DNA of 64,000 bases, from NCBI RefSeq assembly GCF_032062105.1, contig NW_026926499.1:186001-250000 (forward strand). Direction: 5' to 3'. Source of the DNA: Saccostrea cucullata (taxonomy: Eukaryota). Below the pieces are notes generated by a model. It made no database searches, was not told the DNA's origin, and saw only the letters and a program-made list of their open reading frames with translations. How positions within the stretch are numbered: position 1 is the stretch's first letter; each line of letters opens with the position of its first letter. Position numbers and translations under genes: made by a program. Shown here in pieces: positions 29,275-33,740 of the stretch.

Positions 29275-30508
29275 TCATGAAATGGACATGTTTTCTAGTG
29301 ATTTATTTACATCACGCAGACGTTTCCTCCCGCCATTTCTGTGACGTGGATAGCACGTGGTTGCTGGAAACCGATGACGAAGACGCTTCCTGTCGCCCCG
29401 CTTCAGACGTCTCTTGATTTTACACGGAACTCTAGATGTTGAAAAGAAATCCGGCAGGCTATCTGGAGTTTCCTCCGTTACTGCTTCCGCTCTTTTACAA
29501 CATTTTATTCTGTCCCAGCGTGGATTTGTTTGATGTGTATTGTGATGTGTGATACTATCACCTCTGTTGAAACCAATCTCTTCTGTACCGTACAACCCAC
29601 TCAAATTTTCGTCAGAGAATTCTGAAAAAGAGAAAATATTTAAATTAACCAATAACAAAGACAGATCAAGATTTTTTCTTTTCCTTTTTTTTTTTGCTTT
29701 CTAACATACGTTACATGATATCGATAATGTACATTTATAAAAGTTGTTTTTTTTAATATTTCATTTTCGGCTGATTATACATAAAAACTGAGATGTTATA
29801 TTTTCTCGTCGTCTGCCTCACTTCTTATTGTCTAAAACGAAACAAAATATGGAATGTGCATACATCAATTTTATAACATTCTTTTTCGTCTTTCCATTAA
29901 GTGCCAACAATTAATTAAAATTGCTATATATTTCGATTAAATCACTCGCATCTAGGATAAAGTTAATTTGGTGTGCGAGAGTGTCCAGTATTTTCAAGGG
30001 GTACATTATCATGAGGCAATTTTTTAAGGAGTGATAAAACATTAGATAGAGTTTCTTAATTAGGTATACCTGTTATATAGATATTGAGATCCTCCTGTGT
30101 TCTATAGGTAATCGCTTCGTTCAGCTCTTCTTGGGAGGAAAGCGTAATCATATCTCCATCACTGTCTGTAATTTATTTTTTTTTAAATCTCAATTTTTTT
30201 AATATAATAATATTACATAACCTCCACTAAACATATGATTCATTTACATTTTCAAAGATTATCATAAAAATATATCTGGTTTGAAAACAAATTCATGCAC
30301 CAATAAAAACAACGAAATTAAGATATTGTTTATTTATGGATTGTACTATTTATAGTTCTGTTTACATACCTTTCCATTGAAGAGTGTACCTCTGTATATG
30401 AGGAAAATTTTCTTTGATTTCTGACACCAACGATGTATAGTCTGGACTCCCCTCGACAAAATCAATTACATGAAATATACCTTTTTCTGATATAATATTT
30501 ATTTTCAT
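29275..30508 (-). CDS. Small PB1-domain protein with Arg-rich tail, copy 1 (193 aa); exons 30508-30370, 30165-30070, 29621-29275
   Basis: MKINIISEKGIFHVIDFVEGSPDYTSLVSEIKENFPHIQRYTLQWK|DSDGDMITLSSQEELNEAITYRTQEDLNIYIT|EFSDENL...KRRLKRGDRKRLRHRF...; OPCA motif WKDxDGDxITLSS; GT-AG phase-1 junctions; TATA at 30649-30643; frame kept in all copies. Confidence 0.85.
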
Positions 30509-30599
30509 TTTCCACGTGTTTACAAGTATTTATTTGAGTGTATATAAAATTATTCAGTTCTTTTTACTAACAAATGTAAATCAATGTAATTTTCCTAAA

Positions 30600-31030
30600 A
30601 AGGTATAAGCGTCAATAAGTGCGCTTTTGCGCCAACAGGCGCTTTTATAGGGCGCTAATAATAGTCATGTGATTAATTCTAAAAATATCAAGAATGTTCT
30701 AAATCTTGTACTTCCGCCAACCCACACATAATGAATATTTAAATTAGCATGTCTTCTAAGTCATTATATCTTAATTTTTAGGCATTATCTGCAATGTATT
30801 ATGTAATGATTTATTTTAACCTATATTTCTGCATCTTTAGCTAGCAGAAAAGTAATGTAAGTAAAGAAATATTGTTTATTAAACCTTTTGAATAATGAAT
30901 ATTAATGATACGTGAACTTACCATGACCCCTCACGTGACTCGATTACGAAATACCAATCACATGACTAACCACTCGGCGCCTATATAAAGGCGCCCAAAG
31001 CGCCATTGAGCGTAGAAGCGCCCAGGTGAA
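30600..31030. promoter_or_regulatory. Bidirectional mirror-symmetric promoter, copy 1 (also ~38550-38975 and ~49270-49700)
   Basis: Two opposed TATA boxes (30649-30643 minus, 30982-30989 plus), each flanked by GCGCC repeats and preceded by an identical AATCACATGACTA; TCACGTGAC at 30931; CCAAT at ~30954. Confidence 0.75.
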
Positions 31031-31159
31031 TATTTTGATAGCAGCTGAACGTATAAGACTATCAAATTCCGAAAAGGTACTGGTACAAACTTTCTCATCA
31101 ATAGAAACTAATTCAAGTTATTATTTGTTTGTAAACAAAACCACGTGTATCAATAAATC

Positions 31160-33740
31160 ATGCTGAAAGTGAAAGTCACCCTGATGTCTGCCGGAGAGCC
31201 AGAAATACGACGGACGACGCTGGAAAATGATCCGGATTTTGCTGAATTAGAGAGAAAAGTGTCAGAGTTGTTCGGAGAAACGACTGGGACTTTTACGTTC
31301 CATTGGAAAGGTAAGATCAGTCTTTTTATATTTAACTTATAATCCTCCATTTAATTAGTAGTGTAGACTGCCTTTTCCCACTTTATACATAACTGCAATG
31401 AGATAGAAAGGAAACCGATTGTAAGTGAAAATACTGCCTAAATAACATAGTAAATTTGAAACCATTAACATGTGTTGTATAAAAAGCGGTTTGAAAAATT
31501 TAAAGTTGTGAAAATCTCTCCAGACACATTACGAAGGAATATGACAACCCACTTCTCTAGTTTATGAAAAGTTTTATATATATTTCTCCCAAACAATTGT
31601 TCCCAATATATCATTATTTATTCTATATTATTTTGAAATGAATGGAATGGAATTTATTTAATTAAAACATACCCGGTATTGATTAAATTTTTAGATGATG
31701 AGGGTGATTTTATCACGATGTCGAGTTCTGAGGAGTTTCAAGAGGCGAATAAAAGCGCAACCGAGGAGACCCTGAGATTTTTTCTTCGTAGAATCGAAGG
31801 TAAATGCTTCACCGACTTTCAAATGAATTTAGGCATATTGCTTTGAGTTTTTTTCTGAATAAAAAGCCCTCTTTATTTATATGTTTCTTAATACATTTTT
31901 GTATTTTGTAGATCGTTCCAAACCGGAAGGGGACATGAAATTTAATGATGATAATCCTGGTAATGAAAAGGTAAGCTTATAATGTCTAGAGTGTGCTTCG
32001 GTCCGTTGACGGATGTTTTTCTTAGTTTTTACTCTTTCTGCAAGAGAATACATTTTCTGACATAAACAATTTGAAAAAAAAACAATATAATCTTCAATGT
32101 AAATTTCGAGTTAGAATCCTATTCCCTGAGATTTCTTATCACTAATCTAAACATTTAGAATTTCAATCCTAATATTATTTTTTTAATTGAAGGATACGTT
32201 GGCTCCGGAAGAATATGGAATCAGGAGGAGGGAGCGCCGCCGACGTTATTGGAGAGGATTTGGTCAAGGTCAGGGTCCACTGCCACTTCGTAGGTTCAGA
32301 CGAGCCGAGCAGCACCCGGACAAAGATCAACCTCTCTCTGAAAGGAGGATGCGAAGGTTTATGCGTCGCAAATTTGAGAAACGTGAAAGATTTGATCAAC
32401 CTGGTGATGGCATCGATCGATTCCGAACCGGATGTGGCAGTCGTCGGAATCCAATGTCCAGTGAAGGCTGCCACGAAAAGCCTGGCTCTTGTTGTCGTTG
32501 GAACGGGAACTACTGGCGTCGGAGGTGCAATCAGCGTTCTGCCCGACATTTTAGAGAGAGGTTGGATGATGCATATATGGCGCGCGGTAGTTGCCGCTCA
32601 AGAAGGAGAAATCGGGAATGTTGCCTAGGGAAAAGATGTGGCAAGCGAGCTAATTCGGCTCCACCTACTCGTCGTTTTGGAAGAAATCTTAACGATTTCG
32701 GAATGATGATGTATGGAAAAAGATGCACACGGTCAACATCCGTCCCTGTGTGTAGGCAGGAAAAAGATGACGAGATTCAAACTTCTCCGAGATACAGACA
32801 CCGTAGATTCCAAAATGCAAAAATATGGCTCAAGATCAAGGAAGACGGTTCTGTCTGCAAATATTTTATGGATTCCACCTGTGGAGAAGAGAAGAGGTGT
32901 CTTGGACGGCGCTGTAAAAGCTATCAAAGAAGAGCAGCTATGCTTGCAAATGAAAAGTCACAGAACGTCAATGATCCTGCTTCCAAGAATGAACATAGCC
33001 AGGAGCCTGAAATTTCAGAACTTGTTGAAACAATGACCCTTGAGGAGGATATAGAGGGTACTGAAGAATCGGATGTAGGGACAAAGAGCAGTGAGGAGAG
33101 TAAAGAAGGCACCGAAGAAAGAGACACAGGAACAGGTGTCAGTAGAAGGAGAAATTGCAGACACCGTCGATATCATGGCGGGGATGATGAAACAGATGAG
33201 AACCAATCAGGGGAGACAAGCAAAAAGAAGTATCACTGCAAGCACAGATGTGGGCGCAGAAGGCACTCTGGTGAAGCCCAGGAAAACCCCGCCATAATCC
33301 GTGAAATGACTGAAGAGGATGAAATGGAAACAAAACGACAAAGAAAATGTAAAATAAAGGTACACCATCAATCTACGGATAGAGATGCTTCCACAAAATG
33401 CAGAAATACTAAAGAACACGGCATACGAATCCTCACTTTGAAAGTTCGAATGAATGACGATGGAATGAGGCCCAGAAAACTAGCACGGAAACTTGACAGG
33501 ATTCTCAACCAGTACAGTGCAGATCAAGGAAACAAACCGTGGGGAAGAAGATGTGGACGAGAATTCCTAGGAAGATCACGTGGGCACGACTTCGAGCGTC
33601 AGCATCGAAGAATGCTGCGTCGTCAAGGATGTCGTCAGGAAAGAGTCCGTTTTCTGTCGCCCGAATTTCCACGCAATATCGGGGAGAATATTACATCTTG
33701 TGGGGAGAGAAGAATGCGTCCACGTGACTGTCCGTGGTAA
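31160..33740 (+). CDS. Large PB1-domain protein with Arg/Cys-rich low-complexity tail, copy 1 (620 aa); exons 31160-31310, 31695-31799, 31912-31970, 32193-33740
   Basis: MLKVKVTLMSAGEPEIRR...FTFHWK|DDEGDFITMSSSEEFQEA...LRFFLRRIE resembles the SQSTM1/p62 PB1 (VK, EIRR, OPCA); canonical splice sites with phases 1,1,0 join the 517-aa ORF. Confidence 0.88.

What the first reader, a model, noticed from the sequence alone, without database searches (positions are those of the whole stretch)
30070..31799. Complementary PB1 surfaces: a polymerising partner and a possible chain-capping partner
Seen: the large PB1 has the basic face (KVKV lysine, EIRR) and the acidic OPCA motif (DDEGDFITMSSSEE). The small PB1 keeps OPCA (DSDGDMITLSSQEE) but has Asn at the conserved Lys position (K/R-I/V-N-I) and no RR, in all three copies. 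Known: two-faced PB1s such as p62 form filaments, and acidic-only PB1s such as NBR1 can terminate them. Inference: a shared promoter sets the ratio of filament former to cap, and so polymer or condensate size.
Basis: inference. Interest (0 to 1): 0.7.

Follow-up and report, generated by a model that had tools for sequence, protein, structure and literature searches.

The report
Oyster p62-derived filament and cap pair
Oysters carry a back-to-back pair of genes whose protein-joining PB1 domains differ in a conserved way: the long protein keeps both sticky faces and likely forms chains like the autophagy scaffold p62, while the short one keeps only one face and likely caps chain ends, though neither binding nor capping has been measured.

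Summary
Two spliced, head-to-head PB1 genes (620 aa and 193 aa) occur in three tandem copies in a rock-oyster genome (hits are named Saccostrea cucullata). The large PB1 keeps Lys5, Arg17-Arg18 and the four acidic OPCA residues in 11 of 11 oyster sequences. The small PB1 has Asn at the conserved Lys site (register confirmed by structural superposition) and no double Arg in 8 of 8, with an invariant OPCA. Both genes share PB1 intron positions and an M-box-plus-TATA promoter layout with the genome's own p62 gene; the genome's NBR1 has different introns. They are therefore likely p62 duplicates that lost ZZ and UBA, the small one converging on an NBR1-like one-faced surface. Polymer-plus-cap is the best reading but is inferred. 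The predicted large-small complex is only weak support (0.59 against control 0.24). Canonical p62 offers the same basic face as a rival target. Published acidic-faced PB1s can bind filament ends without shortening them. The 'shared promoter sets the ratio' step is not supported as stated: each gene has its own core promoter. No paper on these loci was found.

The parts
31160..33740 (+). Large gene, copy 1 (exons 31160-31310, 31695-31799, 31912-31970, 32193-33740): 620 aa, two-faced PB1 (1-85) plus an Arg/Cys-rich, mostly disordered tail; no ZZ or UBA
   Evidence: = P0008; Pfam on copies 2, 3 and orthologues: PB1 only; splice joints
31172..31213 (+). Basic face of the large PB1: Lys5 (31172-31174) and Arg17-Arg18 (31208-31213)
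   Evidence: invariant in 11 of 11; aligned to p62 Lys and EIRR by hhalign
29275..30508 (-). Small gene, copy 1 (exons 30508-30370, 30165-30070, 29621-29275): 193 aa, acidic-only PB1 (1-80) plus a short basic tail ending in an NES-like motif
   Evidence: (= P0011)
30497..30499 (-). Asn4 of the small PB1, at the site of the conserved PB1 lysine
   Evidence: 8 of 8 sequences with an N-terminus; register
30509..31159 (.). 651-bp stretch between the start codons, with two outward-facing core promoter-like sites: small TATA 30649 (-) with TCACATGA at 30672 (-); large TATA 30982 (+) with TCACATGA at 30958 and CLEAR TCACGTGA at 30931
   Evidence: motif names from PMC6355916; promoter function inferred
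37128..38454 (-). Small gene, copy 2 (193 aa open frame)
39109..41758 (+). Large gene, copy 2 (620 aa, P0001)
44945..49184 (-). Small gene, copy 3 (164 aa, P0007): PB1 intact, tail cut short by a 92-nt foldback insert (44907-44998); 3-kb LTR-bounded insert in intron 1 (45999-48969)
49829..52432 (+). Large gene, copy 3 (625 aa, P0002)

Best explanation
These are two oyster-family genes, likely duplicates of p62/SQSTM1, that lack its ZZ and ubiquitin-binding domains; the large protein likely self-assembles head to tail through its two-faced PB1, and the small protein likely binds the exposed basic end of such a chain with its acidic face and, lacking the lysine and double arginine, would stop growth there. 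Shown: gene structures, splicing in a related species, the two surface types and their conservation, purifying selection on both PB1s, p62-type introns, and absence of ZZ/UBA. Inferred from p62/NBR1 biology: polymerisation, end-binding, and control by MiT/TFE factors through M-box/CLEAR sites. Speculative: the polymer displays Arg-rich tails (net charge about +50) that bind nucleic acid or form condensates, regulated by two RxxSxP sites and NES-like motifs. The cap may also act on canonical p62.
For: Large: K5, R17, R18 and D51/E53/D55/E64 are invariant in 11 of 11 sequences, from clusters named in five oyster species. By my residue mapping these equal p62 K7, R21, R22 and D69/D71/D73/E82, the filament interface; the double Arg is linked to self-polymerisation (PMC6978347 passages). 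Small: N4 in 8 of 8, RR in 0 of 8, D47/D49/D51/E60 in 9 of 9; the C. gigas-type sequences have no K/R in the first 24 residues. The top structural match is NBR1 PB1 (Z 12.5, rmsd 1.6, 78 aligned), tied with Par6B and aPKC. PB1 dN/dS is 0.22-0.29 in 6 of 6 copy pairs, against 0.46-0.91 in the tails. Introns lie at phase 1 in the first OPCA Asp and at phase 1 after the PB1 in large, small, the genome's p62 and p62's neighbour; NBR1's PB1 has three phase-0 introns elsewhere. Six of the 12 TCACATGA sites in the window are the six promoter sites, and p62 has one before its TATA. The pair duplicated as a unit three times here, and O. edulis large and small have near-adjacent gene numbers. Predicted large-small complex: 0.59 against best control 0.24, runs agree in 100% of contacts, partner pLDDT at least 79. 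The mark was reached by 51 of 78 solved and 2 of 108 mismatched pairs, but at 0.60 or under by only 5 of 78 solved and by all 4 passing mismatches of 180; on eukaryotes, by 39 of 65 solved pairs without an older like complex and 2 of 126 unrelated. PB1-PB1 complexes are solved, so the pass may come from likeness.
Against: Two-faced PB1s need not polymerise (PKC-zeta stayed soluble), and acidic-faced MEK5 and PKC-zeta bound ends without shortening filaments. The complex job gave no interface, so the orientation is unknown. The genome has canonical p62, a second two-faced p62-like gene and NBR1 as rival partners. PB1 trees do not resolve the origin. In one tree small sat among p62s; in another it joined the long-branched oyster NBR1 at 72/80, and large fell among non-oyster PB1-ZZ/FW proteins; a large+small clade was neither shown nor rejected (p-AU 0.55). 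A residual basic residue remains in Saccostrea/Ostrea small proteins. In S. echinata, O. edulis and C. virginica two large records but one small record were found. No tail homology to p62 was detected. NES-like motifs arise by chance in 20-59% of shuffled tails; only their positional conservation argues for them.
Confidence: 0.5

Rival explanations
1. Both proteins act on the canonical p62 system: the small one caps or competes for p62's basic face as a second NBR1-like cap, and the large one co-assembles into p62 filaments and dilutes ubiquitin-binding sites. Their adjacency reflects origin by inverted duplication, not an exclusive partnership.
For: The genome's p62 has the same Lys and EIRR face and the same M-box/TATA layout. 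p62 itself sits head to head with a PB1-UBA paralogue about 1.9 kb away, so this layout recurs in the family. The large and small core promoters resemble each other (score 35; 9 of 1000 crude shuffles reached it). The complex tool warns that close relatives of a partner also pass.
Against: The pair is kept and duplicated together. Both proteins have Arg-rich tails unlike p62's acidic tail, which hints at a shared, separate compartment.
Confidence: 0.25
2. The small protein is an end-binding adaptor rather than a length regulator: it docks on a basic PB1 face and delivers its conserved tail (FFS[IV] LIR-like motif, basic tract, terminal NES-like motif) for export or turnover of the assembly.
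For: 27 of the 57 positions invariant across five small sequences lie in the tail. An NES-like motif sits at the C-terminus in 7 of 7 tails tested. MEK5 and PKC-zeta bind ends without shortening.
Against: The LIR-like core is imperfect in copy 1 and absent in C. virginica. Copy 3 lost the tail end while keeping the PB1. The motif definitions are recalled and untested.
Confidence: 0.15
3. These are diverging p62 duplicates with independent functions or weak constraint; the surface difference is loss without a regulatory role.
For: Tail dN/dS reaches 0.91, and copy 3 small carries two mobile inserts.
Against: Both families persist, with conserved surfaces, across Saccostrea, Ostrea and Crassostrea/Magallana; PB1 dN/dS is under 0.3; both are spliced in the same RNA runs.
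Confidence: 0.1

Closest known systems
p62/SQSTM1 filament with NBR1 end cap (PMC6978347; bioRxiv 10.64898/2026.03.10.710728; passages seen)
   Same: A two-faced PB1 with Lys and a double Arg, paired with an acidic-only PB1; oyster NBR1 also has Asn at the Lys site; M-box/CLEAR-type sites upstream.
   Different: Neither protein has ZZ, FW or UBA. The cap has p62-type rather than NBR1-type introns. The genes are adjacent, found only in oysters in these searches, and carry Arg/Cys-rich tails.
CARD-only and PYD-only proteins (CARD17/INCA and others; PMC13148956, passages seen; the capping mechanism seen only as a reference title there)
   Same: Small, lineage-restricted duplicates of a polymerising domain, clustered with their parent genes, acting as competitive regulators.
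   Different: A different fold (death domain). The oyster small protein keeps a conserved tail, and its linked partner is itself a derived duplicate.
Mae and Yan SAM-domain polymer in Drosophila (recalled, not looked up)
   Same: A one-faced domain that ends the head-to-tail polymer of a two-faced relative.
   Different: SAM fold and a transcription-factor context; no evidence here for a DNA-binding domain.

Membership tests
PB1 domain | Pfam PF00564 above cut-off and a beta-grasp fold | tested here: met
   7 of 7 proteins above cut-off; small model matches PB1 structures at Z 9-12.5. The full-length large model failed (pLDDT 32); its PB1 reached pLDDT 81.
Type AB (I/II) PB1, large protein | Lys in strand 1 plus OPCA motif (definition: PMC7051960) | tested here: met
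Self-polymerising PB1, large protein | Double Arg finger in strand 2 | tested here: met
   11 of 11; criterion from PMC6978347
Self-polymerising PB1, large protein | Filaments form | not testable with these tools
   Needs sedimentation or EM; the one complex job went to large-small
Type A (I) PB1, small protein | OPCA present, strand-1 Lys absent | tested here: met
   residual K/R at position 2 in 4 of 8
p62/SQSTM1 autophagy receptor | ZZ and C-terminal UBA domains | tested here: not met
   Pfam finds PB1 only at significance; a p62-tail profile finds no significant match in large or small tails
p62/SQSTM1 gene lineage | PB1 intron positions and phases shared with the genome's p62 | tested here: met
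   aPKC and TFG introns were not checked (one search found no aPKC match)
p62/SQSTM1 gene lineage | PB1 groups with p62 in a tree | tested here: inconclusive
   (93-94 columns, unstable placement)
NBR1 | PB1-ZZ-FW-UBA architecture and NBR1 gene structure | tested here: not met
   Small has PB1 only; the genome's NBR1-type gene lies on C13308 with ZZ and FW and different PB1 introns
NBR1-like filament cap | Binds filament ends and shortens filaments | tested here: inconclusive
   Weak predicted binding only; shortening is not testable here

The most novel reading that the evidence does not exclude
Oysters rebuilt a complete, ubiquitin-independent filament-and-cap module from one p62 gene by inverted duplication. 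One copy became an Arg-rich, possibly RNA-binding condensate scaffold; the other independently re-evolved NBR1's one-faced surface, down to Asn at the lysine site, and sets polymer length. The pair is induced together by MiT/TFE factors and varies in copy number as a unit.
Probability: 0.3. Interest if true: 0.7.

Novelty: new variant of a known kind. Interest (0 to 1): 0.5.

Why it matters
If true, it is a natural, minimal, genetically linked polymer-and-terminator pair and a case of convergent evolution of an NBR1-like cap from the p62 gene. That would let one ask why NBR1 shortens p62 filaments while other end-binders do not, and what a p62-type filament does without ubiquitin binding. It also flags an uncharacterised, likely stress- or lysosome-regulated gene pair in farmed oysters. 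The mechanism itself is borrowed from a known system, which limits the surprise.

Tried and rejected
Full-length AF2 of the large protein failed (pLDDT 32), so it was not used for a fold search. The ESM Atlas gave no usable hit for the large tail and only PB1-type or unnamed leads under 0.9 for the small protein. The metagenome scan for an oyster contig carrying the pair returned 1 locus of 321 pattern matches, a chance hit in a bacterial helicase-like gene, so head-to-head order in other oysters rests on gene numbers only. hhalign found homology only in the PB1 between large, small and p62, and did not align the small N-terminus. The idea that the large tail's RRMRRFMRR helix is a p62 remnant got no profile support. 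No KEAP1-type motif and no conserved LIR-like motif were found in the large tails by regular expression. A motif search for the aPKC gene found nothing, so an aPKC origin of the small PB1 was not excluded by introns; its best PDB sequence hit is aPKC-iota, E 0.002. Contig depths cannot rank expression, so no large:small ratio was derived. The RefSeq X2 isoform joint was not seen in 8 runs of contigs, which drop rare variants. The alternative register (small Lys2 = conserved Lys) was rejected. Paper searches (listings only) found nothing on these genes; 0 papers held any of six orthologue gene ids. Supplements and subscription papers were not searched, and expression tables there may list these ids. 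Earlier findings of the scan: none.

Full report
What is there. The window holds three tandem copies of a roughly 5-kb unit (copy 1 against copy 2 about 93% alike, against copy 3 about 86%). Each has a short gene on the minus strand and a long gene on the plus strand, with start codons separated by 651 bp in copy 1. Exon models built from the sequence give 193, 193 and 164 aa (small) and 620, 620 and 625 aa (large). Five of six equal stored RefSeq proteins named Saccostrea cucullata uncharacterized proteins. Searches of the genome with each protein found matches only in these three copies (10 of 10 and 11 of 11 matches). Contigs from RNA-type runs of a related species join every intron: the large intron 1 in 4 of 4 runs and both small introns in 2 of 4, and small introns again in 2 and 1 of 4 further runs. 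Both genes are spliced in the same runs X1 and X2; depth cannot give a ratio.

The two surfaces. Pfam finds a PB1 and no other family above cut-off in 7 of 7 family members. In 11 large sequences, from clusters named in S. cucullata, S. echinata, O. edulis, C. virginica and C. gigas, Lys5, Arg17, Arg18, Asp51, Glu53, Asp55 and Glu64 never vary, and hhalign places Lys5 and EIRR on those of p62. Counting along the motif, these are p62's K7, R21, R22, D69, D71, D73 and E82, which form the filament interface in PMC6978347 (passages). In the four runs the listed change at Arg17 (31208) is silent. In 9 small sequences the four acidic residues never vary; 8 of 8 with an N-terminus have Asn4 and none has RR. 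A small alignment had put Lys2 in the conserved column, so I tested the register. A 49-row alignment and superposition of the AF2 model (PB1 blocks pLDDT 62-88) on solved PB1s start at p62 residue 4 and AtNBR1 residue 8, which puts Asn4 on the conserved Lys. The best match is NBR1 PB1 (Z 12.5), tied with Par6B and aPKC. The face is not fully neutral everywhere: Saccostrea and Ostrea keep K/R at position 2, S. echinata keeps one Arg, and the C. gigas type has no basic residue in the first 24. Both PB1s are under purifying selection among the copies (dN/dS 0.22-0.29; tails 0.46-0.91; short sequences, NG86).

Origin. The genome has a canonical p62 (PB1, ZZ, UBA) on contig C5957. Its PB1 is split by a phase-1 intron inside the first OPCA Asp and followed by another phase-1 intron (exons 169 and 99 nt). 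The same two positions occur in the large gene (151, 105), the small gene (139, 96) and a PB1-UBA paralogue that lies head to head with p62 (166, 96). The genome's NBR1-type gene (PB1, ZZ, FW; contig C13308) also has Asn at the Lys site, but its PB1 is cut by three phase-0 introns elsewhere (105, 63, 42 nt). I infer that both window genes descend from p62 and that the small one converged on NBR1's surface. Trees do not settle this. Large and small are each one group, but small sat among p62s in one tree (49 rows) and joined the very long NBR1 branch at 72/80 in another (44 rows, six unclassified rows left out and oyster NBR1 added). A large+small clade was not rejected (p-AU 0.55). Among the best 150 of 887 library hits, the orthologue-like ones were oyster records where named; the remainder (64 of them scanned against Pfam) were p62-like, PB1-ZZ/FW or tandem-PB1 proteins and a few unrelated repeats. 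The families thus look restricted to oysters within these searches.

Promoter. The stretch between the genes is almost identical in the three copies and holds two outward-facing TATA boxes (30649 minus, 30982 plus), each preceded by AATCACATGACTA; a TCACGTGA box lies only near the large gene. TCATGTGA (M-box) and TCACGTGA (CLEAR) are MiT/TFE sites, and p62 is called a direct MITF target (PMC6355916, passages). Six of 12 TCACATGA sites in the window are these six; the two cores align with each other better than all but 9 of 1000 crude shuffles; p62 has the same box before its TATA. Co-induction is therefore plausible, but there are two cores, probably from an inverted duplication, and nothing here shows a fixed ratio.

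Binding. The one complex job, large 1-87 with small 1-83, gave weak support: 0.59 against a best control of 0.24, full agreement between runs, partner pLDDT at least 79, alignments not used, no interface given. The mark was reached by 51 of 78 solved and 2 of 108 mismatched pairs, but scores of 0.60 or under by only 5 of the 78 and by all 4 passing mismatches of 180. PB1 pairs are solved, so likeness alone may explain the pass. Large-large and small-small were not modelled.

Tails. The large tail is 17-19% Arg and about 4% Cys, with net charge near +50 and an acidic patch, unlike p62's acidic tail; it was not modelled with confidence. Conserved islands include two RxxSxP motifs in 8 of 8 tails (1.5-4% of shuffles give two), RRCKSYxRRA, an NES-like EISELVETMTL, LARKL and a terminal CPW. 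The small tail keeps FFS, a basic tract and a terminal NES-like motif. The labels 14-3-3 site, NES and LIR are recalled patterns, untested, and NES-like patterns are common by chance.

Mechanism and verdict. Most likely (0.5) the large protein polymerises head to tail and the small one binds the basic end and stops it, as NBR1 does for p62 (PMC6978347; bioRxiv 10.64898/2026.03.10.710728; passages), but without ubiquitin binding. Against a simple reading, the same paper shows a soluble two-faced PB1 and end-binders that do not shorten filaments, and this genome offers p62 and a further paralogue as targets. The C. gigas autophagy survey lists a single SQSTM1 in the passages I saw (PMC7595595), and six searches found nothing on these loci; supplements were not seen. 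It is a real, conserved, apparently undescribed variant of a known system. Interest 0.5.

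Noticed in passing
G000:C5957:105197 (-) and about 107060 (+); loci L046, L047: Canonical p62 lies head to head with a PB1-UBA paralogue lacking ZZ (P0064, two UBA matches). The contig has several more UBA exons and a second p62-like stretch at about 56200-58500 with an in-frame stop in one exon match and no PB1 exon found.
   Followed up: partly
window 30366-30370 and 30161-30165: RefSeq isoform X2 of the small gene (P0005) shifts both splice sites by 4 nt and reads GI for DS, removing the first OPCA Asp; it would likely be binding-dead. Not seen in the RNA contigs; may be an annotation artefact.
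   Followed up: partly
window 44907-44998: 92-nt foldback insert (40-nt arms, 95% complementary) in exon 3 of small copy 3 brings an early stop and removes the basic tract and NES-like end.
   Followed up: partly
window 45999-48969: Element with 544-bp terminal repeats 99.6% alike, in intron 1 of small copy 3; its 349-aa frame (47471-48520, minus) has no Pfam match. Looks like a recent non-autonomous LTR element.
   Followed up: partly
window 19827-27407: BEL/Pao-type LTR retrotransposon with one open 1968-aa frame and 624-bp LTRs 97.9% alike, just upstream of the cluster.
   Followed up: partly
window 37128-38454: The RefSeq model of small copy 2 (P0012) starts at an internal Met and misses strands 1 and 2 of the PB1, though the upstream ATG is in frame.
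   Followed up: yes
window 5726-9649 and 54830-57280: Neighbours: a multi-C2H2 zinc-finger frame (1307 aa) and an XPG_N-containing frame (816 aa; asteroid-like by recall).
   Followed up: no
proteins P0025, P0026, P0028, P0031, P0034, P0036, P0051, P0061: Unnamed 190-285 aa proteins made of two tandem PB1 domains and little else ranked high in the library search; origin not examined.
   Followed up: no
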